From positions 1 to 59,575 of the forward strand of contig CAZDNS010000006.1 in assembly GCA_964506845.1 (NCBI GenBank): a stretch of DNA of 59,575 nt, in the 5' to 3' direction. The position numbers and the translations under genes were made by a program. The first letter of the stretch is position 1; each line of letters starts with the position of its first letter. Below the pieces are notes generated by a model. That model was given only the letters and a program-made list of their open reading frames with translations. It ran no database searches and had not been told where the DNA came from. The DNA comes from an uncultured Planctomycetia bacterium (lineage in GTDB: Bacteria; Omnitrophota; Gorgyraeia; VGKN01). Shown in pieces: positions 5,302 to 38,564 of the stretch.

Positions 5302-5416
5302 GGCTTACTCCGTTTTAGAATTGTAGAGTGAGATTATTGGCTTAAGCGTATAGTTTGAAAAGTATTTATACTTTGATTTTAGCATCGCCTGTATAACATT
5401 ATATAAATAATACCAC

Positions 5417-15377: not shown

Positions 15378-15381
15378 AAAC

Positions 15382-15456
15382 GGGTCAACCTGTGCCTCTT
15401 TGGGTGCTTGTCTAAAAAGAGGGCTTTGCGCCTTTCTTAAAGGGTCAACCTGTGCC
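15382..15456 (-). repeat. 15-nt direct repeat flanking the read-through spacer
   Basis: gggtcaacctgtgcc occurs at 15382-15396 and 15442-15456, exactly 60 nt apart. It encodes AQVDP twice in the read-through frame. Confidence 0.8.
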
Positions 15457-15458
15457 TA
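15456..15458 (-). other. Single in-frame TAG separating the 466-aa and 911-aa ORFs
   Basis: 15378-15455 is 78 nt (26 codons) with no further stop. It translates as AQVDPLRKAQSPLFRQAPKEAQVDPF, directly in frame with MDEVEARV... Confidence 0.9.
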
Positions 15459-17397: not shown

Positions 17398-17799
17398 CTA
17401 AAACGGCATATCTACTTCAGTATGAAGCGCCTTGATTTTCGCAAGTTTTTCCCTCTCTACCTTTGCAATAAAATTATAGATTCGGCTTCTGGAGGGATTA
17501 TCTATATCCAGAAACTGGATGCCGCTTTCTATCTTATCTCGCTCATTTTGAACAGAGCCTCTCTCTATAAACGGCCTCTGCCACACATCCTTGCCTTTAA
17601 CCCTTAAGGGTAAAAATCTGCTATCAAAATTAAGTTCTATGTCTAAGGTATCGCCTGTGTTAATACCCTTATCGGATATAATCCTAATGCCTCCTGAGCT
17701 CATATCCACGCACTTTACAATAAATGCGGCCCCATTCTCATCCTGGCATCTAATATTGAACGAGTATCTGAAACGCCTGTATTTTCTATGTTCTCTCAT
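17398..17799 (-). CDS. PilZ-domain protein, paralog 1
   Basis: ORF track gives 17398..17817. The internal ATG 17799 gives MREHRKYRRFRY..., the same length (133 aa) as paralog 2. It carries the RxxxR ('RKYRR') and D-x-S-x-x-G ('DMSSGG') PilZ signatures. Confidence 0.8.
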   Translation of the reverse strand: MREHRKYRRFRYSFNIRCQDENGAAFIVKCVDMSSGGIRIISDKGINTGDTLDIELNFDSRFLPLRVKGKDVWQRPFIERGSVQNERDKIESGIQFLDIDNPSRSRIYNFIAKVEREKLAKIKALHTEVDMPF

Positions 17800-17810
17800 A
17801 ATTCTATCTC

Positions 17811-17838
17811 TTGACAATGTTCATTTTTATGCTATACT
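17811..17838 (+). promoter_or_regulatory. Sigma70-type promoter of the AbrB/RelE-like cassette
   Basis: TTGACA (17811-17816), 16-nt spacer, TATACT (17833-17838). AGGGGG Shine-Dalgarno precedes ATG 17896. Confidence 0.6.
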
Positions 17839-18518: not shown

Positions 18519-21500
18519 CTACTTAGCTCCAAGCATTGCCCTGTATGAATTCAACTGGTCTGAATAACCTTGTGGAATATTTCCTGTTGGTATTAACGCG
18601 AAGGTTGTATCGCTAAGTTTTTTAACAAGCCCTTCTATTGGCGCATTTAAAGCTATGCTACGGACAGCAGGGAAAATACCTAAATTAGCCGTGTTTTCTG
18701 GAGCTTCATTTACCTGCAGGTTAAACAGATTTTCTCTCTCCAGTCTCCACCCATCTAAATATTCCTTAGTTCCAGCTCTAACTATCTTGTTATATTCTCC
18801 TGAACCCATAAGCTCTTCTATTCCCCTCTTGGTCTTTAACTGAACTTTTCCAGAAGAAACCAAATCTTTCAAACCTGCCAATTCTAAATAGCTATCTATT
18901 TCTCCCTCTTGTATTCCCTCTTTATCAACAACAACCGTTATTCCTTCATCGCTCGCTAACAAACTATTGATAGAAAGTTGCAAGCCAAGCGCCTGCGCCA
19001 GCATATGGGGCTGTAGAACGATAAGATTCCTAAATCCTTCTTTAGGTTTTTGAAAATTGGTGGCGTAATTAAACGTTAGCCAGTTATCAGTATTAATAAT
19101 GGTTTGGGCTCTATCCATAATAGAATTATAGTAAGCTGCGAATAATAGTAACGGGCCAAGCGGCGCTGGTGTGAGTGCTGCTGGCCACGTTGATAATATT
19201 GCTTCAAACTCACTCTTCGCATTACTTAAGACATTTATCACACCTTGAGGATTAGTATTAATAAGTTGCTCTGCCTTAAAAAGTTTCTGCATATGGTTTT
19301 CAAACTCCCAGCTTATATAAATAATGTTGGCTTCTTCGTTGTAAACGAGCGGTTCCTTTTGAGTCTTTGGACCCAAGAATATGTGGGCAGAGGTAATTGT
19401 CTCTGTTTCTGGTAATAGTTTAAGAAGAAGTTTCTGAATTTCTGAATTGGCAAACCAATCAGGCATAGTATCAACCTCTAAACCTCTCTGGTATTGAGCC
19501 TGCTTTCTATCAAGGATTTTATCTCTGTCAATTAAAGATGGGTCGTTTGTTCTCATTTTGGCAATATAAGCAGCTGTATTCGGCATATCTGGTTCTTCTG
19601 TGTCTCCTTTTGCTAATTCAAAGAACATCTTCGGATGCACCTCACCAATCGCATTGCTCAATATTGCACTTATTCTGGCATCAGCAGTTGATGGATAGGA
19701 TTTAATCCTTGCCTCGGTGCCGGATGGTCTGATTATCTCCCAGGTACCGTTACTAAATTCCATATAAACTGCATCCCCTGTAAAAAGATAACGTTGTAAA
19801 TCATCTATTTGTTTTAATAAATCCTCAAGTGCCTTATCATCAGTTACAGCCTTAATCTTTGCTACCATAACCTCATCCTTTACAAGGACTTCTTTTAGAA
19901 TCGCCTTCACATCATTTAATGTGATATTGCCACTTTCTAGGGCAAATGCTAAACTCAAAAAGAAGGCAAAATTGTTATCACGCCATTCAAAACCAACATC
20001 CAACATTTCTTTCCTTCTTTCAGGCGTAGCCTGCGCAGTAGCTAAGACATCCACAAGGTCTACATCTGTCCTGAGTTCTGCTGTATTTTGCATCTGTTTT
20101 TGTTCAATAATCTTTTGGAGCATATTGCTTAAAGATATATCTTGCAAGAATTCTGCATCTTGATATAGGCCTGTTTCATTTACACCGCGCTTTAAAGCAG
20201 CCTCCCTTGCTTTATTGAACCTTTTACTTATCATAATAAACGTAAGAACGCTTGCTTCAACAGCATTCTTTTCCCTCCAGCTTAAATACCTGCGCAAACC
20301 ATCTTCTGTAGTAAGTAGTTCTGTTGAGCCAACTACCATACCGCCCGATTCTTCTCCGGCGAACAATAACCGTGGATTATAGCCAAGCCTGATAGGATTT
20401 CCAAAAATATCGTGTATAACCACCATTCTTGGCTTAAGCCCAAGTTTATGCCTTACTTCATTTATCATAAGCTGTAATTCTACTTTCCGCATAATGGAGC
20501 CTATCTCTTTAAAACCAACTGGAACTTGAACCACAGGTATATCTTCACCATTAGATAATTCAAGCCATGCACTTGAAGAAACGGTTGTTTTTATTGAAAA
20601 AAATGTGGCTGCATTGGGATCTTCAATATTCTGGCTCCATTTTCCTTCTTCTTTAAGTTGTTCTATATAGGCATCCTGAATCTGAAGGAACGTCTGATTG
20701 GGCACATAAACCGCCAAAATCTTCTCATCTGAAAGAACTAAGTATGCTATATTTAAATGTTCTAATCTCTGCTTGGTTTCTTTATCATTTTTCTCCACCT
20801 GCATTAAAACAAATCTGTCTCCATCAGGGTCTGTGGTAGGGTATACAAAACCTATTGGCTGATTCAGCATAAAAACAGGTAATTTAGACGCTGCAACAAC
20901 CTGAAGTAAACTTACATCCTCGGAAATATCGGCCATTTTTGGTCTATAATAAGCAAGCAGATTGCTATTGGCAAGTTTTCGATAGGGCACGCCCAATCTT
21001 TTGAGTAGACCTTCCTCTTCTTTTGCATATATTTTAAATTTAATATTAACTACATCGTTTTCTTTGTCCTGTCTTGGTGTTTCGCCTATATTTGAAGCAA
21101 GCTCTCTTTCGGAAATTGTTGCCACTAACACGTAGGTTAAAGGAAGGTTTCCAAAGAATTCGTCAAGCCTTGTACTGATTTTTTCAACATATCTCTTTAC
21201 GAATTCATCTGGCGGCTGTTTCTGGTTAAAATCTGTCATACCCGTATCGCCAAAGAAAGAATCGGGTATTGTGCCTGTCCAGACTATTTTACCAACAGTC
21301 TCTCTATTAAAAACCTTCTCAAATACACCTCTAAAAAACTGGTAAGCAGAGCCCCTTGCTTGGTCAAATCCAATCTTCAAGCCATTAGCCAATGCCTCTT
21401 GGACGGCTTGTATATTTGAAGAAGTAACATATGAGCCCCTTAAATATTTTGCATATTTATCGCTCACGGGTATATTGTTAGCATCAACTGGACTTTCAAT

Positions 21501-33500: not shown

Positions 33501-36500
33501 GATATTCATATAGAAATACACTGGTTCTGTTTTATCGCTAACTGCATCGGGCTCGTATTTACGAATATATTCCCATAACTCCATTCCTTGTAACTTTGCT
33601 GCCATTTTCCACAATGCCCAAGAGACAGGAACAACAGCATTAGCGCCCAAAACTGCAAAATTCTCTCCTGCTTTCTCTATTATCAATTGTTCCATTTTTA
33701 TTAAGTCTTCATACTTTCTTAAATCTAACCCGCTTTGCATTAGCAATTGAGTAATTATCTCATTAACATTCCTGATAGCCTGTTCTGTGGTTACAGTCTT
33801 TGCCTCATCTTCACCTTTAGATGCACCTGCAGGCACAGTGCCAGTCACTTCAATATCGCCTAATCTCAGCACCGCTTCTACTGTTGATTTACCGCGAGAA
33901 TCAAAAGCCTCTCTTGCCACTAAGTTAAGTTGAATTGGCGCATTACGATTGATTAAGAACTGTATTTCTGGATACTCACCGGCTATTCCTTTAGCAGAAT
34001 CAACTTGTAATGTTCTCCAATTCAGTTGGCGAGGATGTTCAAAATTTTTGGGCTCATCATCTATTAATATTAATTCTTCGGCTGAGGTTATTCCAAATTC
34101 TCTTTTAAGTATTTTAAATGCTTCGTCAAATGCCTTTGACTCCGGTTTTAGTTCACCCAATTCTGCTGAGGTGATAATACGAACATTTTGTAAAAATGGA
34201 AATTTTTTCTTTAGATATTCCGCTCTCTCTTTTTCCATATTAGTAAGGATTGCTAAATTATAACCGCGCTCTGAAATGGCTTTAACTAACTCGGCAACTC
34301 CCGGGATTTCCTTGTATGCGTCATATAAATATAACTTAAGTGTTTCTTTACGCTTATCTTTGCCTAATTCAAAAAACTCTATTGCCTTCTTAGTTTTAGG
34401 TTTTCCTATGGTTTCTCTTAAAAGCTTATTTAACACATAAGACCAGTATTCATCTGCGGAAATCTTACCCAGCCTGAAGTCTTTTGCCTCATTGCTTGTT
34501 TGAAGCCACACGCGCAATGTATCTTCATCAACGCCAAATATCTTATTCATCTTATCTATACAATCATTAAGCCCGTCTGTCAGCAACGTCCCGGTTAAAT
34601 CAAAAAGGACGGTATTGACTTTGGATAACTCAGTTGTCAGCTCTTCTGTTGCCTCCCTTATAAGCTCTTGATAGAGCGGCTGTAACTCATCAGGAAGTTG
34701 GAAGCCTTTTGCTTCTATCTCTTTCAGGAATAAAACCCACCGAAGCGCCTCGCTTGCCCCATATCTATGGTGATAACTAAACATATCAACGATGACTTCT
34801 GGAGCAATGTTTAACCCTTTAAGAAATAGCTTCACCGCTTCAGGATTTGGAATCCGACCGATTGGAGTATCAATTGCTTCTACTTTCATACCTTCAAACT
34901 TACCCGCCATTGCTAGTGCAAGCATAATGAGCCGCACATCCTGACGAAAACCTGGCCAACCTTTTCGGAATTGGTCAAAATGGAAAAAGGCAGGAGCTTT
35001 GCCATTTTGTTTGGCTTGTTTCATAACATAAAGCCAAGTATCAAGATGCTGCCGTTCAGTAGTGGCATAGAATGGCCTTAATGCAAATGGATCTGGCCTT
35101 CGTCTTCCGACTACAGCGCCTTCAACGGCAAATGTTTCCTCTGGAGCCATAAAGAATGCATCTAATATTGCTCTCTCAGGAGTATTCAGTTGGACAAGCG
35201 GAGGTTGCCCGTCTGGAATTTTGCCGCCAAAGAAAATCGCATCAATCCGTCCGCCTTTATGCCAATTGGGTGAGCGGGTTTCAAGATTTACCTTGTTCAA
35301 TGTGAAACGGGCATTTGGATGAGCCCATTTTTCACCCCGTTTGCCTTGTGGGCGTTCTGCAATAGGTTGACCTGTCCAATCCTGCCATCCCTCCAGGCTC
35401 TTTGGAGGAGTGTCTGTTTCACCTTTTACCCAGCGCTCATATTGCTCTAACTCACTCACGTCAATTGGCACAGTATCAGTTAATTCCTCCCACCATACTT
35501 TACCTGTCTTTCGGTTAATGGCAGTGTTAGTAAAGATTACGGGTTTATTTCCAGGTTTAACTTTTGGGCTGAGTGTAGCCTCAACAAGCCTTGCGTTCGT
35601 TCTGGGGCTTGTTTTTGGTGCCACAGCAAAAAGCCCGTCCTCGGGATTTGCACCCACAAGATAACCCTCCTCATCAAACCACATACCTACTAGGTCATCG
35701 CTGATTGTAAGAACCTCCCAATCATCCGCTAATTCATCAGGAGGAAGATAGGTTGCAAACGTGCTTTTACCTGAGGCGCTTGGACCGAATAACATAATAC
35801 GGTATGTTTTGCTGGTTTTCTTATTTATTAATTCAATTAAAGCCGCATGCTCTGCCAGCACAAGCGTATTCGGAGGTATTGACTCTCCTTTATCGCGAGC
35901 TCGTTTTACATTTTGATACGCTATATACTGGGCTAAACGAAGCCCAAATTTCTTTGGACCTAAGAGATTGCCGCCATAGGCTGACCCAAAAAGGCCAACC
36001 TCTCTCTCTTTTGGAAATTCAACAAACAATCTGTCCTCTGGTTCATCAGGCTTAGTGGCTCGTCTAATTTTATCCAAATCTCCTGTGGAGTGCCAAATTT
36101 TTAAAACCTCATCCGGATTAGCCGAATTAAGCTTCTGTAATGCACTATCGCCAATAACCGCCTGTCCGACTTTAACCAGTTCCAATAAACTTATCGCCCC
36201 ATAGATACTGTCTGTAACCTGCACACCCACCATCTCAATCGGAGAACCTGGGAACATAATAAATGGTATTACATACATCTTCTTTCCTTTATAGCTTCCA
36301 TACGCCCTATCTTTAAGCTGTTTTTTTGCTTCATCTGCATGCATCCAGTTATTAAAAATTCCCTTATCAGCTGGGTCGTCAGTCGCAATATGGGTCGGAG
36401 CTTCGGCGCGGGCAGTATCCTTTGGATGAGACCTATGATGGTAATTACCATCGGGAAGCGCGGTTAAAACTCCTTCCTTAACAGCAAGGTCAAAAAGACG

Positions 36501-38564
36501 CTGTTCATCTGTCGCATCAATAACTTCAATCCCTCCGGCTCCGAGAAACCCTGCCTTGCCATTAATCCATTCCTTAATAGGAGCATTCTGAATCGTATCT
36601 ATAGCTTTTCCAATGGCTAAATAATCCTCCGGATGTTTGATAGTTTGCCTTGCAGCTACTACTCTGCGAATAGCGATGCGGGTGGCTGCTTTACGCAAGG
36701 ATATGTTCTCACTCTTAACCAATGACCACATCTCACTAAAGTTAGTGCGCATACGTGTATTTACATCTTCAGCAATCTCATCATCCGTCATCCGTTTATT
36801 CGCAGGGTCATTGAGCCACCATTCCCAGAAAGAGACAATCACTCCGCCTGCACTGGCTAAGATGTCTGGAAGGACAAATACCCCCCTACTTGAGAGTTCT
36901 TGGTCAGCTTGTCTGGTAATAGGTCCATTTGCTGCTTCGGCAATCAAGCGCGCTTTGACACGGCCTACATATCCCGGACGCTCTGGGTCAGTATGAATAA
37001 CATCTTCTACGCTGGCAAGTAATAGAATGTCCGCATCTGCTTCAAGAACTGCCCTATCTCCCTCATCCTTACCTCTAACTGCTTTTGCTCCTACCTTATC
37101 AGCAACATCCACAACCGATTGTTTGTTCTCCTTTGCCTTTATAAGGATATTAATATCATCCTCAGAAAAACCCTTTTCTTTAAGAACTGCTCCACCTGTA
37201 TCATTAATCGCAACTATTTTTTTACCACGCTTAATCTCCTCAAGGGCTCCGAAACGACCTGCATTTCCAAAACCAGTAATGGCTTCAATGGGTGCATCCG
37301 GATTTTTCATCTTAGAGCGTATCTCAGGCTCTTCTAATGCCCGGCTAATTACATATGAGGCACCCAAGCCGGTAGCGATATTACGCACCTTCAAGCCACC
37401 TAAGTCAGTGGGTTTTCCAGTAATCATTCCAATCTCACGCGCTTCTTTGCGATGGGCAGCCACTAAATATGGAACATCGAGGGAATGCTTTTTATCTTCA
37501 TTTGTTGGTGTTAACCCAAGCTCTTTAGCCCTAACCTCCAGTGCTCCATCCAATATCCAAGCCATATCTTCACCTGTTGTGTTGACATCAGGCGCTGGAA
37601 TATCTATGTCATATCTAATTATGCCTTGTCTTGCCCAATCAGCTCCAATAGCTCGCATCATATTCCTTCGGTCATCTCTTAAAAGCTCTTTTTGCCTAAG
37701 AGGTTTAACCTCTACAATACGTCCTTCTCTATTCCTTCTATACAATACTCCAAGAATCTGGGCTTTACCGCCGCCATATAGAAGGTTAGCCAAGGCAACT
37801 TTCCACGTCATATCCTTTGACATCGCTCGCCCCTCTTGAGTTGTCCATTCTTGTGAATCCTCCACAAGCACCTGTAACTCCTCTTGGGTATGTGGACGTT
37901 GACTTAATGCCTCAAGACGCTCATTAAGTGCTCTGCCCAAAGGGTCATCTCCTGCAAATATAAGTCTAATCCCACCCTTAAATTGTCCTCGCCAGTTGTT
38001 ATCCTGACAACGGACAACAAAGAGATTCCATTCTTCACCATTCACTTTTACGGGAATTTCTGCTTTGTGGATGTTCTGGGTTTGTAAGAGTGCTTCAGCA
38101 ATATCATCAGAAATTCCTTCTGTTTTAATAGCCTCTTTCGTCTCAGCCAGCACCTTGGTAAGAAATGGATTTAAGTATCCATTACTGCCTCTCCTCATAC
38201 TACCTTGTTTTCCTAAGAATAGGGGTGGTGCAAGGTGAGAATCTGGCTTTTGAGTTAAGGAATAAGCAGGGGAAGGTAGAATCAGGGATGTAACAAGAAA
38301 AGTCTGTGCCACAATCAACGCTACAAGTTTTTTAAAATATTTTCTAAAGCCTTTAGTTTTGTGCCATAATAAAGTCATAGGTTTTAAGTCACAGGCCATA
38401 AGTAAAGGGGTTACCGCTTGTGGCTTGTAACTTGTCCAGAATGAAGTTGCTTTCTTAAGTAGTACTTCGGAATCCCGAAGCTTAATTCTATCAGACCGTA
38501 TCATTGGGGATGACTTTTGGCTTCTATTTTCTATTGTCTGTTTTCTGTCTTCCGCCATTTCCAC
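18519..38564 (-). CDS. Leader-passenger-CTD megaprotein (6681 aa): GDH + GTP-PEPCK + HAD + enolase + permuted iPGM + WH linker + permuted TIM + PGI + HAD-IIB + Zn-ADH + phosphohexomutase + shared C-terminal domain
   Basis: Single uninterrupted ORF in the track. The start is uncertain. GTG 38564 / ATG 38558 have an AAGGA upstream. ATG 38378 (M63) gives MTLLWHKTKGFRKYFKKLVALIV..., aligned with the paralog leaders, and 38379-38564 is built from intergenic-type repeats, but that ATG lacks an SD. Confidence 0.9.
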   Translation of the reverse strand: MEMAEDRKQTIENRSQKSSPMIRSDRIKLRDSEVLLKKATSFWTSYKPQAVTPLLMACDLKPMTLLWHKTKGFRKYFKKLVALIVAQTFLVTSLILPSPAYSLTQKPDSHLAPPLFLGKQGSMRRGSNGYLNPFLTKVLAETKEAIKTEGISDDIAEALLQTQNIHKAEIPVKVNGEEWNLFVVRCQDNNWRGQFKGGIRLIFAGDDPLGRALNERLEALSQRPHTQEELQVLVEDSQEWTTQEGRAMSKDMTWKVALANLLYGGGKAQILGVLYRRNREGRIVEVKPLRQKELLRDDRRNMMRAIGADWARQGIIRYDIDIPAPDVNTTGEDMAWILDGALEVRAKELGLTPTNEDKKHSLDVPYLVAAHRKEAREIGMITGKPTDLGGLKVRNIATGLGASYVISRALEEPEIRSKMKNPDAPIEAITGFGNAGRFGALEEIKRGKKIVAINDTGGAVLKEKGFSEDDINILIKAKENKQSVVDVADKVGAKAVRGKDEGDRAVLEADADILLLASVEDVIHTDPERPGYVGRVKARLIAEAANGPITRQADQELSSRGVFVLPDILASAGGVIVSFWEWWLNDPANKRMTDDEIAEDVNTRMRTNFSEMWSLVKSENISLRKAATRIAIRRVVAARQTIKHPEDYLAIGKAIDTIQNAPIKEWINGKAGFLGAGGIEVIDATDEQRLFDLAVKEGVLTALPDGNYHHRSHPKDTARAEAPTHIATDDPADKGIFNNWMHADEAKKQLKDRAYGSYKGKKMYVIPFIMFPGSPIEMVGVQVTDSIYGAISLLELVKVGQAVIGDSALQKLNSANPDEVLKIWHSTGDLDKIRRATKPDEPEDRLFVEFPKEREVGLFGSAYGGNLLGPKKFGLRLAQYIAYQNVKRARDKGESIPPNTLVLAEHAALIELINKKTSKTYRIMLFGPSASGKSTFATYLPPDELADDWEVLTISDDLVGMWFDEEGYLVGANPEDGLFAVAPKTSPRTNARLVEATLSPKVKPGNKPVIFTNTAINRKTGKVWWEELTDTVPIDVSELEQYERWVKGETDTPPKSLEGWQDWTGQPIAERPQGKRGEKWAHPNARFTLNKVNLETRSPNWHKGGRIDAIFFGGKIPDGQPPLVQLNTPERAILDAFFMAPEETFAVEGAVVGRRRPDPFALRPFYATTERQHLDTWLYVMKQAKQNGKAPAFFHFDQFRKGWPGFRQDVRLIMLALAMAGKFEGMKVEAIDTPIGRIPNPEAVKLFLKGLNIAPEVIVDMFSYHHRYGASEALRWVLFLKEIEAKGFQLPDELQPLYQELIREATEELTTELSKVNTVLFDLTGTLLTDGLNDCIDKMNKIFGVDEDTLRVWLQTSNEAKDFRLGKISADEYWSYVLNKLLRETIGKPKTKKAIEFFELGKDKRKETLKLYLYDAYKEIPGVAELVKAISERGYNLAILTNMEKERAEYLKKKFPFLQNVRIITSAELGELKPESKAFDEAFKILKREFGITSAEELILIDDEPKNFEHPRQLNWRTLQVDSAKGIAGEYPEIQFLINRNAPIQLNLVAREAFDSRGKSTVEAVLRLGDIEVTGTVPAGASKGEDEAKTVTTEQAIRNVNEIITQLLMQSGLDLRKYEDLIKMEQLIIEKAGENFAVLGANAVVPVSWALWKMAAKLQGMELWEYIRKYEPDAVSDKTEPVYFYMNIYNGGLHALKKAEGEVLGKDRIDIQEIMIVPVGAKSYREQLEMGDMIDSALKEILLGRFDAKTIKRADEAGFSVKGLGNSTEAIGYVFEAIEKAGYRVGEDVKLALDVAASSFYDKDRGVYNFQGKAWTSDKMIDYYVQLAEQYAGKIISIEDGLAENDWEGWQKLTKEMMRRGVRTKRGIRTVGDDLFVTQLQRLNKGIEMEAATDILIKVNQNGTMYGTLEAIKAAKRAGMGWIISHRSGETMDNGIADLAYATNAFGLKTGDPQPPYDFAEGGQYQGQPLVRRVKYLRMIEIEEQTKKVKLVKRISDVLASAYKLVEDHFKGKAKGDEFVLPIVVVDEDGNPIGRVKDGDTLFFVNFRTDRPRQLIWWFTGQNYEDRAGDVERGKVPQVEFVTMTQYDGAFTVPVVLKTPPLTNTYGEVLAAHGIRQMRRAEDAKIKHVTYFLDGEKQEKSEGEEWGLIPSQQVATYNSAPEMKAVELANAVISDMRSGIEDIVLNFANADMLGHTGDFEAAKKGIEVVDEQLGRLIEEAKRQGYIVVITADHGNAEQMVDKSGKLLTSHTSNPVPFIIIGLDGQVSLREGGNLTNVAPTLLHLRRIEKPQEMDQESLITSPLNTTHNKILTIVLDGWGIRKETEGNAIAQANTPNMDTFWKQYPHTSLKASEIPSSENGHREIGAGRRLMTARELINESIQDSSFFQNETLVQAMQQVKQKGTTLHLLGLLSDGNVHSSMEHWFATLELAKRLGLKSEQVVIHAFLDGRDTSPDSAKKYLDELQTKCDELGVGRIVDAMGRYWGMDRENKWDRTGLAARALINGEAAQYVKITSQNTTTESYAMTVPTTPTQGSLAEAILDLYSAGRKGLINANSIITTDGYVETDGKKKRWRKLHRTRGAPRREAKPFSRTTLTWELDGLASLGFFTKEKVKTDKGQRLEYRPTEKFFILLEARQAQLNEIANLPAFQHPSVFEAFSTKNLTELILGINNILLKIAEDRVFEILKQRKSLSVKELEESGVAGSYSAEEVLEALARSKWIVKKEIVDGEVRYFYRPMRLMAQANEKTNIKLLKSLGADGILSGHSESRVAHELTDEDVNALLKQADGIMGGINVLAVGEPAEMRYPKDDANEGKLKEEGWNFIRSQVVNGLAGRTREQILNTIIAYEPIWAIGEKAIRPATPQEAEEVQGFIKGILRELVGGDADKVVIQYGGSMNAKNAAGLMVEVDIDGGLIGGASLTKEAALSLIRAIVETVRAQKKSGTFSGRIPTLGFNLKAEVGGAKMEAAYLRELMDIFKFIEANLSDIDLENDIRIFFAVSDTDISLFDRALRGESPADLFDLNQATLPNGMELAVDIKWLSPFKPGAHTSDITAEALRLAGVKHVIVADEVTEDDPRVIRAEEAGLKVVGLREKNIVLISDLVYLRDLLKEVVEEGSYKNCLIVIPPSLAREAYVYASTIPLTVAHRAPLRKTVVKEKGVYKSYKAEGQLELVVEGLVKVSHKFAKEPRPLYTAEELRRINANLSGALATWQAYLNSHGVNSSYAARRFPGSSYSFKTRFFVDPDNEFYISNPGDGFLEIDDEWTMLPAILQTLLLNHEANLTESVALDEDLLFYAWLKKNRSEELEAALKAHPELARQPYFAFLEKNWNKYAEDKKKAIIRFMMQEELRQAGRAVETGLIEKGNFEIAAQILDKLRDIFVALCFDQGKAGEDFYLVPDAMAPLVYLLKSKEPPNPEELLRRLKGLILQDDFRGSISNVWDLSAEGKRKMAEILLRHKEALDEILLPLYNLRHYERENIDRHEIKTQVSIGKIYYAVDKDYRNRRFYISLGSIDGINFFLNWPAASGEAISLVEAGDLAYQMEKGQVRILGRLSTDESALNKEDRFKDISARLSRLIENAEPRVSEAFHSLHYVSTLNDMAASRTSSGSGHPAPVSKPSESLLQTVSEEFARIVQTTGLPSSQLTEILLNATAVQVFITRLAELSRKNPEDILNILSKQPLLKGLVSRYKLEQIAATDVPPTIPAERQTRLKAGDLVDAEKVSGYSKHGVAISVSLPKDEVIVDREELAVVRRLHSEVQDIMQNKESQPEERRGNLNYRGEVKEYYNEEFSAVAEQLDEYVAEHFRGIENVDWLFVMGMGANEFLLHEMMRLQEEMREGGTLGKRPRLILVNNPVELERILSEHPDIQDDNSLWIYLSRSGETTETEKVLGFTHNKFTHNIAFANQGALKILGERFADAGARVFPFSPKRNIGGRFMRRKTEMVYGPFYLAFGPKITQRYVEVTDTADQKLSFTKKDGFAFQLARFIDVNMRLGRRQNIAMVIGSERLMPKAKELRQWVMEGVNKPEALSPTLLSIYPPGDKSLDRVAENMADDHIVIVLLDKSDPGYAEASKKAESLKQRMPVIVIEIEKMTIESSAELTTLFEDTIASYSHMVNQDHYSNPMVRRVRNEGAVALAQLGERTRERHRITVEVGELPVAKGRPDETDILRGDEEVKPDEAAISLWKQFSLLAEEIGISYEDMLAVLFDEAINAFKFCVDSAENAKMLRSISMANKIQNLPIFGRLTPRYKNAVSLKAGVAKADVFVKTGVLNTAAQALGIDVNISLGEASYNESAVKARREQFEAQISPIIQRAEAQGDQKTLLAIQLATFLALAYAEDPARQYINFLVNNSSLKLLTRAFKESVSGKNGMIVFTGELPTDSHSYIEGVIGQSARFLDILILARDYERPEGKALESLLKVDDVHTPHHIGLSVADVNYGLAKGNANALAAKSPTIVITVDKLDQATIRTLSDIFAKSAELISQARIFGRGDTVEAFFSSGALREAEQRYEEIEDVMPGTNVLIFDNDQFLTWPVIDLSAEELEEIIKGKKPMPAKYRLSPDNYVLLTKYLSRGGILVILSGGDLNNLLLRVVDILPAHLRRQIIIAHCGGKQVYTFDEQGNLVDRPAIDFVAEFFEERKIDEEGRASFEREWMAAIDKAAEFFSLDSTEVVEVSIPRVRVDRRYDRRGYQQGHPVQVTFEFDSRNAALNSLAGQKKQQVVEELNRRIRDFNQQNSEANIPQLSLSDEKYDLRIPLKEYLQFLYKKTEREKGIALTNLGLSLPGTGALDTGIEGINKRVVTTAIIDRGLIEGLLGRKIDGLEILVGEDSPSSLVAMLSGIANASSEEINNADKARGLLVPEKTPLDDDPFLAGLRDRITIILGKYGPACEGLTKYMIDSLGRRSDSVVDCKFCALKNGVVTVQEKQIDLSKCAKDEVIVRVALAGICRADVKEVTSSRDIPEDRGPLFGHELVGEIVAAGKDTGFKVGDRITFNPNITPDRTTGFAEYFSVRGARVKEALNIVPEEIPLEKAVLSEPLACVVRSVDKLLSHMGVSDLRGKRVAVIGAGNVGTMHLLLAKNLGAEEIVALDIDSNRLDFLRKQGLFDGRTKLFNKEGIEENLGEDGGKFDVVIVVPTAITPKTLRVASQLITNDGVIHLYGGTRKGDIFAGADIDSIRRNETKERAMIDDKMLFLSGAYGAESPDFQKAFGLLQNPELPFERLVSTKIDLRGLPSYITAMAKGDEDPPGKVVVQPSTMGGIWQKLPQAAEIAIRLVDLLPYLEKTFKDGFDGLAQQIAVSLPPYIKISELSFMVCSDGLWIVGPEQEDKPQVFMRINPNKQAGISEGIKKVVEVSEAELVSEDVDIGTVTRISIAASEPAARREMIRQIVANLITEKKKIADGLTYEEPAYSITPLMQRFIFGAKLEIEFLKGFEKAAEKARTQYPELAALIEHLKDPNSGPFKLEITKELAEKWNLKKGLADVVKAMAPIAVAGMRNSQNPLAPFDLNSPMNILLTLLLGNELAETALKIAAEQEATMTETIIGGEVRYNTPLVSEMLRRRFAKLGIIVHSPSRGTYLPIGATSFITTVLNIMFTMYDTASHSARNIYASKLMGNLRPPISPFIEANLEKLGIDVKAYRRARSEGAQLLIEDMVALADNIGRKIDDILETGKPLIIEFASSSDEHIHFDIESPVDANNIPVSDKYAKYLRGSYVTSSNIQAVQEALANGLKIGFDQARGSAYQFFRGVFEKVFNRETVGKIVWTGTIPDSFFGDTGMTDFNQKQPPDEFVKRYVEKISTRLDEFFGNLPLTYVLVATISERELASNIGETPRQDKENDVVNIKFKIYAKEEEGLLKRLGVPYRKLANSNLLAYYRPKMADISEDVSLLQVVAASKLPVFMLNQPIGFVYPTTDPDGDRFVLMQVEKNDKETKQRLEHLNIAYLVLSDEKILAVYVPNQTFLQIQDAYIEQLKEEGKWSQNIEDPNAATFFSIKTTVSSSAWLELSNGEDIPVVQVPVGFKEIGSIMRKVELQLMINEVRHKLGLKPRMVVIHDIFGNPIRLGYNPRLLFAGEESGGMVVGSTELLTTEDGLRRYLSWREKNAVEASVLTFIMISKRFNKAREAALKRGVNETGLYQDAEFLQDISLSNMLQKIIEQKQMQNTAELRTDVDLVDVLATAQATPERRKEMLDVGFEWRDNNFAFFLSLAFALESGNITLNDVKAILKEVLVKDEVMVAKIKAVTDDKALEDLLKQIDDLQRYLFTGDAVYMEFSNGTWEIIRPSGTEARIKSYPSTADARISAILSNAIGEVHPKMFFELAKGDTEEPDMPNTAAYIAKMRTNDPSLIDRDKILDRKQAQYQRGLEVDTMPDWFANSEIQKLLLKLLPETETITSAHIFLGPKTQKEPLVYNEEANIIYISWEFENHMQKLFKAEQLINTNPQGVINVLSNAKSEFEAILSTWPAALTPAPLGPLLLFAAYYNSIMDRAQTIINTDNWLTFNYATNFQKPKEGFRNLIVLQPHMLAQALGLQLSINSLLASDEGITVVVDKEGIQEGEIDSYLELAGLKDLVSSGKVQLKTKRGIEELMGSGEYNKIVRAGTKEYLDGWRLERENLFNLQVNEAPENTANLGIFPAVRSIALNAPIEGLVKKLSDTTFALIPTGNIPQGYSDQLNSYRAMLGAK
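18522..19082 (-). other. Shared C-terminal domain (CTD), copy 3 (most divergent)
   Basis: 'WLTFNYATNFQKPKEGFRNLIVLQPHMLAQALGL..ITVVVDKEG..KIVRAGTKEYLDGW..ANLGIFPAVRSIALN..YSDQLNSYRAMLGAK-stop'. Confidence 0.8.
19635..22112 (-). other. alpha-D-phosphohexomutase (PGM/PMM) domain with large insertions
   Basis: All four family loops occur in canonical order: 'YDTASHSARN' (phosphoserine loop), 'TTDPDGDRFVL' (metal loop), 'FAGEESGGMV' (sugar loop), 'IIRPSGTEARIK' (phosphate loop). Spacing between loops is much larger than in free-standing enzymes. Confidence 0.75.
22800..23852 (-). other. Medium-chain Zn-dependent alcohol/polyol dehydrogenase-like domain
   Basis: 'VRVALAGICRADV', 'LFGHELVGEIVAAGK', 'VAVIGAGNVGTMHLLLAK'. 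No structural-zinc Cys cluster was seen. Confidence 0.65.
24075..25022 (-). other. HAD-IIB-like (sugar-phosphate phosphatase/PMM-type) domain
   Basis: 'NVLIFDNDQFLT' (DxD motif I), 'GGILVILSGGD', 'IEGINKRVV', 'EILVGEDSPSS' in place of GDxxND. Confidence 0.5.
25095..27182 (-). other. Glucose-6-phosphate isomerase-like (two SIS halves split by a long insertion)
   Basis: 'WLFVMGMGANEF', 'LWIYLSRSGETTETEKV' and 'NIGGRFMRRKTEMVYGP' form SIS-1. 'MIVFTGELPTDSHSYIEGVIGQSARF' forms SIS-2. Confidence 0.65.
29175..30311 (-). other. Triosephosphate isomerase, permuted / one-and-a-half copy
   Basis: First come beta4 to the C-terminus: 'LGADGILSGHSESR', 'IIAYEPIWAIGEKA', 'VIQYGGSMNAKNA', 'DIDGGLIGGASL'. 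Then the N-terminal half follows: 'IPTLGFNLKAEVGG', 'IRIFFAVSDTDISLF', 'FKPGAHTSDITAEALRLAGVKHVIVADE'. Confidence 0.75.
30345..30869 (-). other. Arg-rich segment + two winged-helix-like modules
   Basis: 'GKKKRWRKLHRTRGAPRREAKPF', then 'LTWELDGLASLGFFTKEKVKTDKGQRLEYRPTEKFFILLEARQAQLNEIANLPAFQHPSVFEAF', then 'RVFEILKQRKSLSVKELEESGVAGSYSAEEVLEALARSKWIVKKEIVDGEVRYFYRP'. Confidence 0.6.
31047..32564 (-). other. Cofactor-independent phosphoglycerate mutase (iPGM), circularly permuted
   Basis: The canonical C-terminal part comes first: 'GDEFVLPIVVVDEDG', 'FFVNFRTDRPRQ', 'NFANADMLGHTGD', 'VVITADHGNAEQM', 'TSHTSNPVPFI'. A ~10-aa linker follows. Then comes the canonical N-terminus: 'ILTIVLDGWGIRKETEGNAIAQANTPNMD', 'SSENGHREIGAGR', 'HLLGLLSDGNVHSSMEH', 'FLDGRDTSPDSA', 'GRYWGMDRENKWDR'. 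Confidence 0.8.
32610..33938 (-). other. Enolase domain, catalytic motifs intact
   Basis: 'AREAFDSRGKSTVEA', 'VPAGASKGEDEA', 'NIYNGGLHA', 'ADEAGFS', 'LALDVAASSFY', 'IISIEDGLAE', 'TVGDDLFVT', 'ILIKVNQNGT', 'IISHRSGETMD', 'FGLKTG'. Confidence 0.9.
33990..34622 (-). other. HAD-superfamily domain with P-type-ATPase-like D-x-T-G-T motif I
   Basis: 'TVLFDLTGTLLTD', 'NLAILTNMEKE', 'ELILIDDEPKN'. Confidence 0.6.
34695..36587 (-). other. GTP-type phosphoenolpyruvate carboxykinase domain
   Basis: 'KKMYVIPFIMFPGSPIEMVGVQVTDS', 'FGSAYGGNLLGPKKFGLRLA', 'IMLFGPSASGKST', 'GANPEDGLFAVAP', 'KWAHPNARFT', 'IDAIFFGGK', 'FHFDQFRKGWPGF'. Confidence 0.85.
36645..38072 (-). other. Glutamate dehydrogenase-like (ELFV family) domain
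   Basis: 'WRGQFKGGIRL', 'LLYGGGKAQI', 'YDIDIPAPDVNTTGEDMAW', 'ITGKPTDLGG', 'AITGFGNAGRFGA', 'EAANGPIT', 'LPDILASAGGVIVSFWEW'. Confidence 0.85.
38190..38378 (-). other. Family leader of the 6681-aa protein
   Basis: MTLLWHKTKGFRKYFKKLVALIVAQTFLVTSLILPSPAYSLTQKPDSHLAPPLFLGKQGSMRRGSNG. Confidence 0.7.
38435..38510. repeat. ~75-nt palindromic intergenic repeat, diverged copy E3
   Basis: tccagaatga...cttcggaatcccgaag...tcattgggga is colinear with E1 (50426-50500). It lies inside the N-terminal extension of the 6681-aa ORF. Confidence 0.7.

What the first reader, a model, noticed from the sequence alone, without database searches (positions are those of the whole stretch)
18519..38564. 6681-aa pathway-on-a-string: ten recognisable enzymes in one ORF, ordered roughly along gluconeogenesis
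Residue map from my count of the track protein. Leader 63-125; GDH ~165-640; GTP-PEPCK ~660-1290; HAD ~1315-1525; enolase ~1543-1985; iPGM ~2001-2506; Arg-rich + WH ~2566-2740; TIM ~2752-3130; unassigned ~3131-3790. PGI ~3795-4490; HAD-IIB ~4515-4830; Zn-ADH ~4905-5255; unassigned ~5256-5484; phosphohexomutase ~5485-6310; unassigned ~6311-6494; CTD ~6495-6681. The order follows OAA -> PEP -> 2PG -> 3PG ... triose-P ... F6P -> G6P -> G1P. FBP aldolase/phosphatase is supplied by the next gene downstream and PEP synthase by the gene upstream. Active-site signatures are retained. Enolase keeps SHRSGET, IKVNQNGT, VGDDL and SIEDG. TIM keeps the N/K, H and E contexts. PGM keeps all four loops, and PEPCK keeps its P-loop. 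Most domains carry large insertions relative to free-standing homologs.
Basis: partly seen in the sequence, partly recalled or inferred. Interest (0 to 1): 0.9.

Follow-up and report, generated by a model that had tools for sequence, protein, structure and literature searches.

The report
Giant Omnitrophota multi-enzyme fusion protein
One unbroken 20-kb gene of an uncultured Omnitrophota bacterium strings at least eight intact-looking sugar- and amino-acid-metabolism enzymes (two of them naturally circularly permuted) behind a membrane-type leader; two recent preprints have noted such enzyme strings in this phylum, so it is an extreme new example, not a new kind of thing.

Summary
The ORF is real: window 18519-38564, minus strand, 6681 codons, no internal stop (chance about 1e-207), with uniform coding periodicity. 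Eight enzyme modules are confirmed: GDH, GTP-type PEPCK, a HAD hydrolase, enolase, iPGM, TIM, a Zn-MDR polyol-type dehydrogenase and a phosphohexomutase. PGI has only weak support. The 'HAD-IIB' call has none.

The iPGM is circularly permuted, which is proven against a solved structure. The TIM is permuted too, in a way shared by other Omnitrophota fusions. The host is an Omnitrophota bacterium. The gene sits in that phylum's conserved PPDK -> enolase/TIM fusion -> pilZ layout. The giant and its neighbours (PPDK, FBP aldolase/phosphatase, PutA-GDH, an Fe-S/FAD enzyme) share a hydrophobic N-terminal leader with a 'KLAPPLxLGK' motif. They also share a winged-helix adaptor and a 190-aa Rossmann-like C-terminal domain with no known relative.

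The 'pathway' is not continuous, because PGK, GAPDH and the 2-oxoglutarate-to-oxaloacetate steps are absent. The module order is not conserved in relatives.

Two preprints (West-Roberts 2023; Nielsen & Lui 2026) already describe glycolytic domains in Omnitrophota giant proteins. My verdict is a new variant of a known kind. The most likely mechanism is a membrane-tethered metabolon, and where it sits in the cell is unresolved.

The parts
18519..38564 (-). Giant ORF, 6681 aa from GTG. The likely real start is Met3 (SD-like AAGGA upstream) or Met63 (by homology with paralogous leaders).
38178..38357 (-). N-terminal leader (aa 70-129): basic stretch, about 20 hydrophobic residues, then the 'HLAPPLFLGKQG' motif. 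Shared with four other proteins of the window.
36645..38123 (-). Glutamate dehydrogenase module (aa 148-640). FKGGIR 195, GGGK 263 and DIPAPDVNT 321 are present. About two insertions.
34710..36572 (-). GTP-type PEPCK module (aa 665-1285). The P-loop GPSASGKST 927, LAEH 903, DD 956 and HPNARF 1082 are kept. GGRR is replaced by GGKI, and the guanine loop is shortened.
34008..34616 (-). HAD-superfamily hydrolase module (aa 1317-1519). Motif I reads DLTGT: the nucleophile Asp is kept and Asp+2 is replaced by Thr.
32610..33923 (-). Enolase module (aa 1548-1985). All metal and catalytic motifs are intact. 57-62% identical to the enolase of other Omnitrophota fusion proteins.
31665..32552 (-). Permuted iPGM, first half (aa 2005-2300), equal to residues 219-510 of B. 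stearothermophilus iPGM.
31035..31637 (-). Permuted iPGM, second half (aa 2310-2510), equal to residues 6-213 of the same enzyme. The Ser62-equivalent (SSENGH 2356) and all Mn and Arg motifs are intact.
30501..30995 (-). Winged-helix adaptor module with an Arg-rich insert (aa 2524-2688). The same module occurs in p2295, in p911 and before the CTD of relatives.
29760..30326 (-). Permuted TIM, beta4-beta8 part (aa 2747-2935, TIM profile positions 76-244). His motif at 2763, Glu motif at 2847.
29295..29729 (-). Permuted TIM, beta1-beta3 part (aa 2946-3090). Asn/Lys motif LGFNLK 2952 and GAHTSDIT 3046, followed by a degenerate second beta4 (VKHVIVADE 3062).
27708..29279 (-). Module E (aa 3096-3619), no known family. 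53-57% identical to a separate leader-bearing gene (P0009) in another Omnitrophota MAG.
25095..27182 (-). Probable, very divergent PGI/SIS module with large insertions (aa 3795-4490).
24075..25022 (-). It remains unassigned.
22800..23792 (-). Zn-dependent MDR dehydrogenase of polyol/threonine-dehydrogenase type (aa about 4925-5255). The catalytic Cys, His and Glu and the GxGxxG motif are kept. The structural-zinc Cys loop is absent.
19635..22112 (-). Phosphohexomutase module with about 300 aa of insertions (aa 5485-6310).
18522..19091 (-). C-terminal domain (aa 6492-6681). Rossmann-like alpha/beta/alpha fold ending in a conserved helix '...YRAMLGAK'. Shared with p911 and p2295.
38626..45027 (-). 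Upstream sister gene: leader plus PEP synthase/PPDK, 2133 aa, colinear with the 2601-aa PPDK of the typical Omnitrophota operon.
12642..16856 (-). Downstream sister gene: leader + FBP aldolase/phosphatase (FBPase_3) + WH + CTD. It is read as two ORFs (466 + 911 aa) because of one in-frame TAG at 15456-15458.
5495..12382 (-). Sister gene: leader + WH + GDH-like + PutA (proline dehydrogenase + aldehyde dehydrogenase) + CTD, 2295 aa.
1..5304 (-). Sister gene that runs off the window (>1768 aa): leader + Fer4_20 + Pyr_redox_2 (GltD/NfnB-like Fe-S flavoenzyme).
17398..17817 (-). pilZ gene just downstream of the giant. A paralog lies at 47000-47401.
47588..49186 (-). Conserved 532-aa membrane protein of unknown family that heads the array. 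67-75% identical in two other MAGs, where it sits directly upstream of leader-bearing genes.

Best explanation
Shown. This is a genuine, intact gene of an uncultured Omnitrophota bacterium. It encodes one polypeptide of about 6.6 kaa made of at least eight catalytically intact-looking enzymes: GDH, GTP-type PEPCK, a HAD hydrolase, enolase, circularly permuted iPGM, circularly permuted TIM, an MDR polyol-type dehydrogenase and a phosphohexomutase. It also carries a probable PGI and several non-catalytic modules: a leader, a winged-helix adaptor, module E and a Rossmann-like C-terminal domain. It is an expanded version of the TIM-PGK-enolase fusion gene and occupies the same place in the conserved Omnitrophota layout PPDK -> fusion -> pilZ. 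The same modules are separate leader-bearing genes in sister genomes, so fusion and fission are evolutionarily fluid.

Inferred. The hydrophobic leader fixes the chain to the cytoplasmic membrane. The WH and CTD modules join it to its sister proteins (PPDK, FBP aldolase/phosphatase, PutA-GDH, Fe-S flavoenzyme). The result would be a membrane-tethered metabolon that holds the near-equilibrium steps between amino-acid-derived C3/C4 acids and hexose phosphates close together. The adjacent PilZ proteins may put it under c-di-GMP control. The presence of FBP aldolase/phosphatase and PEPCK, and the absence of PFK from this locus, make net gluconeogenic flux the more likely direction here.
For: Real coding gene.

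Enzyme identities and catalytic motifs.

Omnitrophota origin: PNPase best hits at 63% identity, and all relatives are annotated as Omnitrophota.

Conserved operon: L085 has aldolase-PFK-GAPDH (1697 aa), PPDK (2601 aa), TIM-PGK-enolase (1530 aa), then PilZ. Its enolase is 58% identical to the giant's, and its PPDK is colinear with p2133.

Widespread fusions: enolase joined to TIM, PGK, dPGM, PPDK or PEPCK, all with similar leaders.

Shared modules: leader, WH and CTD recur across five window proteins and in relatives.

Fusion and fission: P0009 and L081 carry module E as a separate gene. P0004 has FBPase + AlaDH in one ORF. P0007 has iPGM + PGM. L084 has a GlpX + aldolase + HAD fusion and a leader-PGM gene.

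Cytoplasmic side: Fe-S/FAD, NAD(P)-, GTP- and ATP-dependent enzymes sit behind the same leader. They need cytoplasmic cofactors and cofactor-insertion machinery.

No internal starts: no excess of internal start signals at module borders, 3 found against 1.5 expected.
Against: The leader has basic residues before the hydrophobic stretch and an AxA-like site after it. That is the pattern of a Sec signal peptide or type II anchor and would put the enzymes outside the cytoplasm. West-Roberts et al. also predicted such domains to be extracellular. No topology predictor could be run here.

Nothing shows that WH or CTD mediate assembly. CTD has no structural relative, and WH gives only local matches.

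Some sites deviate from the canonical enzymes: PEPCK GGRR->GGKI with a shortened guanine loop, and HAD Asp+2->Thr. PGI and PGM are very divergent.

The neighbouring FBP aldolase/phosphatase carries a nonsense codon, and toxin-antitoxin genes interrupt the array. Some decay of the locus in this genome cannot be excluded.

There are no expression or protein data.
Confidence: 0.5

Rival explanations
1. Exported enzymes. The leader is a cleavable Sec-type signal peptide, and the following 'KLAPPL / NLRPxA' motif is a secondary sorting signal. The enzyme string, or its processed parts, would then work outside the cytoplasm: in an enlarged periplasm, on the cell surface, or inside or next to the prey or host cell of this episymbiotic or predatory lineage. 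There it would convert host metabolites into forms the bacterium imports.
For: The leader has signal-peptide anatomy: a basic n-region, a hydrophobic core and an AxA-like site (SFA|E, AYA|N, ANA|S, YAG|A). This is seen in all family members and in the common Omnitrophota fusions.

A conserved motif sits immediately after the putative cleavage site.

West-Roberts et al. predicted TIM, PGI, FBPase, PGM and aldolase domains of giant proteins to be extracellular. Nielsen & Lui found a signal peptide or TM helices in 94% of long Omnitrophota proteins.

Sugar ABC transporter, MFS and glycoside hydrolase genes follow the homologous operon.
Against: The enzymes need GTP, ATP, NAD(P) and, for the sister protein, Fe-S clusters and FAD. 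Sec substrates cross the membrane unfolded, and no Fe-S insertion is known in the periplasm. There is no consistent twin-arginine motif.

Leader-bearing fusions carry core glycolysis (PGK, GAPDH, PFK, enolase) in typical Omnitrophota. Exporting them would leave the cell without cytoplasmic glycolysis, unless other copies exist.

If the giant starts at Met3 (SD-like site), 77 residues precede the hydrophobic stretch, which is atypical for a cleaved signal peptide.
Confidence: 0.22
2. Polyprotein. The giant ORF is a precursor that a protease cuts at the inter-module linkers into individual enzymes, possibly with leader removal. Fusion would then serve co-expression and stoichiometry, not physical channelling.
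For: The same modules exist as separate genes in sister genomes, so they can work apart.

West-Roberts et al. proposed post-translational cleavage for giant Omnitrophota proteins.

A conserved, uncharacterised 532-aa membrane protein always heads these arrays. By my untested recollection its HxxDxH / GGxH motifs resemble TraB/Tiki-type metalloproteases.
Against: No protease domain was found in the giant or in the 532-aa protein. No repeated linker or cleavage motif was seen. The leader occurs once only. Several junctions are very short, for example about 15 aa between enolase and iPGM.
Confidence: 0.15
3. Artefact or dead gene: an assembly chimera, or a string of decayed genes that merely lost their stop codons and is no longer functional.
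For: The contig comes from a metagenome-assembled genome. The neighbouring FBPase gene has an in-frame stop. TA modules are inserted in the array. PGI, PGM and about 1,500 aa of the protein have no recognisable family.
Against: A 6681-codon open frame has a chance of about 1e-207, and coding periodicity is uniform. Catalytic motifs are intact in at least seven modules. Orthologous modules are 53-67% identical in independent assemblies. Comparable fusions occur in many independent datasets.
Confidence: 0.03

Closest known systems
Giant multi-domain proteins of Omnitrophota: 'Archaeovorins' (West-Roberts et al. 2023, bioRxiv 10.1101/2023.11.21.568195) and the class 'multi-enzyme metabolic clusters' (Nielsen & Lui 2026, bioRxiv 10.64898/2026.06.07.730766)
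   Same: The phylum is the same. Many different metabolic Pfam domains are tiled in one polypeptide. TIM, PGI, FBPase, PGM, aldolase and PPDK domains are explicitly reported. There is an N-terminal signal- or TM-like segment. pilZ gene(s) lie immediately downstream.
   Different: This protein is 6.7 kaa, below their size cut-offs of >=10 or >=30 kaa. It has no GT1, TPR, dockerin, C39/S8 peptidase, GGDEF or repeat scaffolds. It consists almost entirely of central-carbon enzymes. No secretion-system locus lies upstream within the window. The leader motif, the WH adaptor, the CTD and the circular permutations are not described in those papers, as far as my text searches show.
Omnitrophota TIM-PGK-enolase fusion (about 1500 aa, e.g. 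P0031) in the operon aldolase-PFK-GAPDH / PPDK / TIM-PGK-enolase / PilZ (found here)
   Same: The enolase is 57-62% identical. The TIM has the same permuted motif order. The leader is similar. The gene occupies the same slot between PPDK and pilZ.
   Different: The giant lacks PGK and has enolase before TIM. It adds GDH, PEPCK, HAD, iPGM, PGI, ADH, PGM, WH and module E. Its C-terminal domain is not detectably related (hhalign probability 0.2%). Its locus carries gluconeogenic FBP aldolase/phosphatase instead of PFK.
Classical bi- and multi-enzyme fusions of central pathways: Thermotoga PGK-TIM, stramenopile TPI-GAPDH with a mitochondrial presequence (PMC3527533), fungal pentafunctional AROM, CAD (own knowledge apart from the cited paper)
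   Same: Consecutive or neighbouring pathway steps sit on one chain. In stramenopiles there is also an N-terminal targeting signal that relocates glycolytic steps.
   Different: Those fuse 2-5 enzymes, whereas this one fuses 8-10 and adds adaptor modules. None of them contains permuted TIM or iPGM. Those are experimentally characterised.
Kinetoplastid glycosome (own knowledge)
   Same: This is only a functional analogy for the novel reading: a whole set of glycolytic or gluconeogenic enzymes carries a common targeting signal.
   Different: It is a eukaryotic peroxisome-derived organelle using PTS1/PTS2 signals, and its enzymes are not fused. No compartment is known in Omnitrophota.

Membership tests
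Omnitrophota giant / multi-enzyme metabolic proteins (West-Roberts 2023; Nielsen & Lui 2026) | Encoded by an Omnitrophota genome | tested here: met
   PNPase best matches are Omnitrophota MAGs at 63% identity. All proteins sharing the CTD, module E or the 532-aa partner are annotated as Candidatus Omnitrophota. There is synteny with L083.
Omnitrophota giant / multi-enzyme metabolic proteins (West-Roberts 2023; Nielsen & Lui 2026) | Many distinct metabolic Pfam families tiled along one polypeptide, with none dominating | tested here: met
   At least 14 Pfam families from 8 enzymes.
Omnitrophota giant / multi-enzyme metabolic proteins (West-Roberts 2023; Nielsen & Lui 2026) | Length >=10,000 aa (Nielsen & Lui catalogue) or >=30,000 aa (West-Roberts 'giant') | tested here: not met
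   6681 aa. It is smaller than the catalogued class, so it is filed as a variant.
Omnitrophota giant / multi-enzyme metabolic proteins (West-Roberts 2023; Nielsen & Lui 2026) | N-terminal signal peptide or TM segment | tested here: inconclusive
   A hydrophobic leader is present and conserved. No SignalP or DeepTMHMM was available to classify it.
Omnitrophota giant / multi-enzyme metabolic proteins (West-Roberts 2023; Nielsen & Lui 2026) | pilZ gene(s) immediately downstream | tested here: met
   PilZ at 17398-17817, 0.7 kb downstream of the stop codon on the same strand. The same is seen in L085 and L086.
Omnitrophota giant / multi-enzyme metabolic proteins (West-Roberts 2023; Nielsen & Lui 2026) | Preceded by a T2SS/T4P-like secretion locus | tested here: not met
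   The region upstream of the array (49.8-59.5 kb) holds housekeeping genes only: CDP-OH transferase, MiaB, RodZ, FtsK, UppP, PNPase and RibF. The locus may lie beyond the contig.
Cofactor-independent phosphoglycerate mutase (iPGM) | Phosphatase and transferase domains with Ser62, the Mn ligands and the substrate arginines, in the canonical N-to-C order | tested here: not met
   All residues and motifs are present and the score is 426 bits. However, the chain order is 219-510 followed by 6-213 of 1ejj. It is therefore a circularly permuted member.
Triosephosphate isomerase | (beta/alpha)8 barrel with Asn/Lys (beta1), His (beta4) and Glu (beta6) in that order | tested here: not met
   The motifs are present but ordered His 2763, Glu 2847, Asn/Lys 2952. 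Rejoining the halves extends the Pfam match from 76-244 to 62-244. Beta1-beta2 are not detected by any profile, and barrel closure was not modelled.
Enolase | N- and C-terminal domains with the metal ligands (D, E, D) and the catalytic E, K, K and H | tested here: met
   Pfam gives 63.6 + 222 bits. All motifs were read at 1578-1948.
GTP-dependent PEPCK | P-loop, catalytic His/Lys, DD metal site, NxR, and the guanine pocket (GGRR, NWF...WPGFGEN) | tested here: inconclusive
   The catalytic core is met. The nucleotide pocket is altered: GGKI, DQF, and a 6-aa deletion. Nucleotide specificity is not predictable.
Phosphoglucose isomerase | Two SIS domains with the SxSGxTxET and GGR[FY]S motifs and the catalytic Glu, His and Lys | tested here: inconclusive
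   Two weak colinear NCBIfam hits and two motifs. No Pfam or PDB hit. The catalytic residues were not located.
alpha-D-phosphohexomutase | Four domains with the phosphoserine, metal, sugar and phosphate loops | tested here: inconclusive
   Domain III is above the Pfam cut-off, and domains I and IV are weak. The four loops were read by eye. There is no PDB hit.
   No hit in Pfam, NCBIfam or PDB at permissive thresholds.
Sec-type cleavable signal peptide | n-h-c regions with a short h-region and an AxA site at the extreme N-terminus | not testable with these tools
   The pattern is visible by eye. The h-region is long (about 20 aa) and the start codon is ambiguous. No predictor was available.

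The most novel reading that the evidence does not exclude
The shared leader plus the 'KLAPPL / NLRPxA' motif would be a dedicated sorting signal, processed or recognised by the conserved 532-aa membrane protein or another factor. It would place the core sugar and amino-acid metabolism of Omnitrophota in a location other than the bulk cytoplasm. That location could be a specialised membrane domain or compartment, the periplasm or cell surface, or the prey cell. This includes the giant protein here and the common aldolase-PFK-GAPDH, PPDK and TIM-PGK-enolase fusions. It would amount to a bacterial counterpart of signal-directed pathway relocation, as in the glycosome or in stramenopile mitochondrial glycolysis. 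The WH and CTD modules would act as docking parts.
Probability: 0.2. Interest if true: 0.9.

Novelty: new variant of a known kind. Interest (0 to 1): 0.62.

Why it matters
If the chain is made and active, it is one of the largest natural single-chain assemblies of unrelated soluble enzymes. That would make it a natural test case for substrate channelling and for how far enzyme fusion can go.

It documents natural circular permutation of two textbook enzymes. For iPGM this is proven here. For TIM it is strongly indicated, and the permuted order is shared across Omnitrophota fusions. This is useful for protein-evolution and protein-engineering work.

The common leader on GTP-, ATP-, NAD(P)- and Fe-S-dependent enzymes sharpens a question both preprints left open. 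In these host-dependent nanobacteria, where does central metabolism actually take place? This question becomes directly testable with this compact, well-annotated locus.

Tried and rejected
Searches for relatives of the C-terminal domain:
- The word-indexed 5.8-billion-protein database found nothing.
- GTDB species genomes found nothing.
- JGI metagenome contigs found nothing (the first attempt failed because the alignment was too diverse).
- Only the exhaustive HMMER library found relatives, 8 representatives in all.

Other searches that found nothing:
- The 532-aa partner protein in JGI metagenomes.
- Queries with the whole giant (too long) and with its last 4.1 kaa (timed out).
- PDB sequence searches for the PGI region, PGM, the claimed HAD-IIB region and the 532-aa protein.
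- Rfam and tRNA scans of the window.
- An initial literature search on generic terms.
- A search for reports of natural TIM or iPGM permutation. This is not proof that none exist.

Ideas tested and rejected:
- Homology between the window's CTD and the C-terminal domain of the common Omnitrophota fusions: hhalign probability 0.2%.
- Homology between the CTD and the HAD-like tails of the sister MAG: probability 0.3%.
- TAG recoding as the cause of the interrupted FBPase gene. TAG is also the normal stop of the giant, p911 and FtsK, and the relative has GAG at that position.
- The two large 'gaps' being pseudogene remnants of enzyme genes. They hold pilZ, TA pairs, a 23S-rRNA-IVS protein and a small leader ORF.
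- The 178-aa and 171-aa ORFs (17862-18398, 45312-45827). I dismissed them as spurious because they overlap the TA genes on the other strand and have no family.

Left as suggestive only:
- An internal relic of a leader at aa about 3096-3135 (IPPSL against APPSL). BLAST extends through it, but the leader HMM does not detect it.

Full report
1. THE OBSERVATION

The ORF exists exactly where stated: window 18519..38564, minus strand, 6681 codons from a GTG to a single terminal TAG. It is far beyond chance. From the base composition, the probability of 6681 stop-free codons is about 1e-207, and the other two frames of that strand contain 512 and 700 stops. The GC1 > GC2 > GC3 pattern is the same in every 1.5-kb slice, so there is no compositional sign of a chimera.

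The real start is ambiguous. Met3 has an SD-like AAGGA upstream. Met63 would give a leader of the same length as in the paralogs.

2. THE MODULES

Clearly recognised by Pfam:
- GDH
- both PEPCK domains
- a HAD hydrolase
- both enolase domains
- iPGM
- TIM
- both domains of a Zn-dependent MDR dehydrogenase
- PGM domain III

Comparison with solved structures:
- PEPCK is a GTP-type enzyme (187 bits to M. tuberculosis PEPCK). The P-loop, catalytic His, DD and NxR motifs are present. The GGRR motif and the guanine pocket are altered.
- GDH is colinear with T. maritima GDH and has two insertions.
- The dehydrogenase is closest to iditol, threonine, xylitol and galactitol-1-phosphate dehydrogenases.

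Motifs read directly from the sequence, located and interpreted from textbook knowledge of these families:
- Every enolase metal ligand and catalytic residue is present.
- All iPGM Mn, Ser and Arg motifs are present.
- The GDH lysine motifs are present.
- The MDR catalytic-zinc ligands are present. The structural-zinc loop is absent.
- All four phosphohexomutase loops are present.
- The HAD module keeps the nucleophilic Asp but has Thr at Asp+2.

Weaker or unsupported calls:
- PGM is supported by domain III above threshold plus weak colinear hits to domains I and IV and to an archaeal GlmM model. It has no PDB sequence hit.
- PGI rests on two weak colinear NCBIfam hits and two signature motifs. 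Pfam and PDB give nothing.
- About 1,500 residues remain without any family: 3096-3790, 5256-5484 and 6311-6491.

The statement that most domains carry large insertions is true for GDH, TIM, PGI and PGM. It is not true for PEPCK, enolase, iPGM or the dehydrogenase.

iPGM. Giant residues 2005-2300 align to residues 219-510 of B. stearothermophilus iPGM. Giant residues 2310-2510 align to residues 6-213 of the same enzyme. The total score is 426 bits, and the Pfam coordinates agree. The old termini are joined by about nine residues, and the new termini lie inside the transferase domain. The iPGM of relative P0007 shows the same reversed Pfam order.

TIM. The body at 2747-2935 matches TIM positions 76-244. 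It is followed by a segment carrying the Asn/Lys motif (LGFNLK 2952), the alpha3 region (GAHTSDIT 3046, with weak TIM hits) and a degenerate second beta4 (VKHVIVADE). This is the signature expected from duplication followed by truncation. Rejoining the halves in silico extends the Pfam match to positions 62-244 and raises the score from 130 to 140 bits. Beta1-beta2 stay below detection, and I could not model barrel closure. The same motif order (His, Glu, then Asn/Lys) occurs in six independent Omnitrophota TIM-PGK-enolase proteins, so the permutation is old and clade-wide.

4. WHAT SURROUNDS IT

All large genes of the window lie on the same strand and are oversized metabolic enzymes:
- a 2133-aa PEP synthase/PPDK upstream
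- an FBP aldolase/phosphatase downstream
- a 2295-aa GDH-like + PutA protein
- a protein of more than 1768 aa with GltD/NfnB-like Fe-S and FAD domains

Shared modules among these genes:
- Five of them share an N-terminal leader. It has basic residues, about 20 hydrophobic residues with a central polar residue, an AxA-like site, then 'KLAPPLxLGK'. It occurs exactly once per protein.
- Three end in the same 190-aa C-terminal domain, '...QLAGYKAQLGAK'.
- A 150-aa adaptor recurs in the giant (2524-2688), in p2295 and in p911, and directly before the CTD in relatives.

Structure predictions:
- AlphaFold2 folds the CTD confidently (pLDDT 84, pTM 0.82) as a Rossmann-like alpha/beta/alpha sandwich ending in a long helix. 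It has no structural relative: the best TM-score is about 0.4 and no hit reaches E <= 0.001.
- The adaptor core folds with pLDDT about 90. It matches the winged helix of PadR, MarR and HxlR regulators locally only.

Small genes between the giant and its neighbours:
- two paralogous pilZ genes
- MazE/ParE and MNT/HepT pairs on the opposite strand
- a 23S-rRNA-IVS protein
- a 130-aa leader-only ORF

A 532-aa membrane protein of unknown family heads the array. It is 67-75% identical in two other MAGs, where it again lies directly upstream of a leader-bearing gene.

5. WHOSE GENE IT IS, AND HOW COMMON

The PNPase of the window is closest to Candidatus Omnitrophota MAGs at 63% identity.

The CTD is extremely rare. 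There are 8 representatives among 1.84 billion proteins, two of which are the window's own. Neither GTDB representative genomes nor JGI metagenome contigs contain any. All carriers are Omnitrophota MAGs, and all attach the CTD to metabolic enzymes:
- FBP aldolase/phosphatase + alanine dehydrogenase in one ORF (P0004)
- permuted iPGM + PGM (P0007)
- HD + HEAT repeats (P0003)

In sister MAG GCA_964579905.1 the modules are separate leader-bearing genes:
- PGI
- module E + WH + a HAD-like tail (53-57% identical to giant residues 3096-3619)
- GlpX-FBPase + class II aldolase + HAD
- PGM
- the Fe-S flavoenzyme

Contig L083 of another MAG is syntenic with the window: PNPase, UppP, FtsK, RodZ, MiaB, CDP-OH transferase, the 537-aa protein, then a leader/CTD gene.

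A search with the enolase + iPGM segment showed that enolase fusions are common in Omnitrophota:
- TIM-PGK-enolase (about 1500 aa, 57-62% identical in enolase)
- enolase-PGK
- enolase-dPGM
- enolase-PPDK
- enolase-PEPCK(ATP)

These carry similar leaders, followed by '(D/S)NLRPxAxK'.

On a 470-kb Omnitrophota contig the layout is as follows:
- an aldolase-PFK-GAPDH fusion (1697 aa)
- PPDK (2601 aa, with leader, colinear with p2133)
- TIM-PGK-enolase (1530 aa)
- a 401-aa protein
- PilZ
- sugar ABC transporter, MFS and GH2 genes

The window has the same backbone: PPDK, then the giant, then PilZ. The giant is therefore an expanded occupant of the TIM-PGK-enolase slot.

6. WHAT IS ALREADY KNOWN

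West-Roberts et al. (bioRxiv 2023) reported TIM, PGI, FBPase, PGM, aldolase and PPDK domains inside giant Omnitrophota 'Archaeovorins'. They predicted these domains to be extracellular but doubted that prediction. They also noted pilZ genes directly downstream of giant genes, followed by solute-binding proteins, transporters and glycoside hydrolases.

Nielsen & Lui (bioRxiv 2026) defined 'multi-enzyme metabolic clusters' as one of three classes of Omnitrophota proteins of >=10 kaa. They found signal peptides or TM helices in 94% of them.

As far as my text searches show, neither paper describes this 6.7-kaa protein, the leader motif, the WH adaptor, the CTD, the conserved 532-aa partner or the circular permutations. 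A search for natural permutation of TIM or iPGM found nothing relevant, which is not proof of absence.

7. HOW IT MOST LIKELY WORKS

Shown:
- an intact gene
- intact catalytic sites in at least seven modules
- shared non-catalytic modules among co-oriented neighbours
- a conserved operon position
- fluid fusion and fission among relatives

Inferred: the leader ties the chain to the cytoplasmic membrane. WH and CTD link it to its sister proteins. Together they form a tethered metabolon for the reversible steps between C3/C4 acids and hexose phosphates. PilZ and c-di-GMP may provide an input.

The main argument for the cytoplasmic side is that enzymes needing GTP, ATP, NAD(P), FAD and Fe-S clusters all sit behind the same leader, and that in typical Omnitrophota the leader-bearing fusions are core glycolysis. 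The main argument against is that the leader looks like a Sec signal peptide or type II anchor, which would place the enzymes outside.

FBP aldolase/phosphatase and PEPCK, with no PFK at this locus, favour gluconeogenic flux here. The chain is not a complete pathway, however. PGK, GAPDH and the 2-oxoglutarate-to-oxaloacetate steps are missing.

The monotone order has a post-hoc p of about 0.003. It is reversed relative to the common TIM-PGK-enolase fusion, so I give it little mechanistic weight.

Module borders show no excess of internal start signals. Whether the chain is cleaved after synthesis cannot be decided here.

8. VERDICT

The reading 'pathway on a string, ordered along gluconeogenesis' is only partly supported. 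It is best filed as a new, compact, enzyme-only variant of the recently described Omnitrophota multi-enzyme giant proteins. Several features appear to be new observations:
- permuted iPGM and TIM
- a shared leader, WH and CTD tool-kit
- a conserved partner protein

Its location in the cell and the functions of its modules remain open.

Noticed in passing
window 15456-15458 (minus strand); ORFs 15456-16856 and 12642-15377: The FBP aldolase/phosphatase gene is one gene split by a single in-frame TAG. Relative P0004 has GAG (Glu) at that position and aligns continuously at 67.5% identity across the break, including the 26 'intergenic' codons. TAG is a normal stop elsewhere in the window. A nonsense mutation or a sequencing error is therefore more likely than recoding.
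   Followed up: yes
window 17398-17817 (-) and 47000-47401 (-): There are two closely related pilZ genes with RxxxR and DxSxxG motifs. One lies just downstream of the giant, the other upstream of the PPDK gene. This matches the published remark that giant Omnitrophota genes are followed by pilZ. A 33-nt direct repeat (45042-45074 and 47414-47446, 91% identical) lies just upstream of the start codons of PPDK and of the second pilZ.
   Followed up: partly
window 47588-49186 (-): This is a 532-aa protein with an N-terminal TM segment. It is 67-75% identical in two other Omnitrophota MAGs and always lies directly upstream of a leader-bearing enzyme gene. It has no Pfam, NCBIfam or PDB match. By recollection only, its HLQDLHCNYD and AGGYHTKG motifs resemble TraB/Tiki-type metalloproteases. 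It is a candidate processing or assembly factor.
   Followed up: partly
window 17896-18422 (+) and 45272-46095 (+); 16930-17322 (-): Two toxin-antitoxin pairs (MazE/ParE-like and MNT/HepT) lie on the opposite strand, and a 23S-rRNA-intervening-sequence (bAvd-like) protein gene is inserted between the big enzyme genes. The mechanical ORFs 17862-18398 and 45312-45827 overlap them and look spurious.
   Followed up: yes
window 46331-46723 (-): A 130-aa ORF consists of little more than a leader (KKLIALIVAEVFIATSL...SRLAPPM) and a short helical tail. It could be a free-standing leader protein or the remnant of a truncated family member.
   Followed up: no
window 1-5304 (-) and L081 5038-11667: A further giant-family gene runs off the window. 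It has a leader, about 700 aa of unknown sequence, then GltD/NfnB-like Fer4_20 + Pyr_redox_2 domains. Its homolog in L081 also has a 2x[4Fe-4S] domain. Fe-S enzymes behind this leader argue against plain Sec export.
   Followed up: partly
proteins P0010-P0015 (about 1720 aa, sources Logan/JGI/NCBI, taxon not established): These show a nested architecture. The start of PEP synthase/PPDK comes first, then the C-terminal part of enolase, then a complete iPGM, then the N-terminal part of enolase, then the rest of PPDK. In effect this is a permuted enolase with iPGM inside it, all inserted into PPDK.
   Followed up: no
giant aa about 3096-3135 (window about 29160-29279): The alignment with the separate module-E gene of the sister MAG runs on into that gene's leader (HKLAPPSL against CLIVIPPSL). 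This may be a fossil of an internal leader left by gene fusion. The leader HMM does not detect it.
   Followed up: partly
L081 genes 1-2 and L084 gene 5081-9568: The sister MAG uses a different shared C-terminal tail, HAD-like and ending '...ANPDYLANGPINWQAELLxQLGI', on its PGI, module-E and FBPase-aldolase proteins. It is not detectably related to the window's CTD (hhalign probability 0.3%). The common Omnitrophota fusions have yet another C-terminal domain.
   Followed up: yes
window 49187-49813: This is a very AT-rich stretch (26% GC) between the 532-aa gene and the CDP-alcohol phosphatidyltransferase gene. It has a 147-aa open stretch on the minus strand that looks like the PgpA gene found at the same place in L083.
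   Followed up: no
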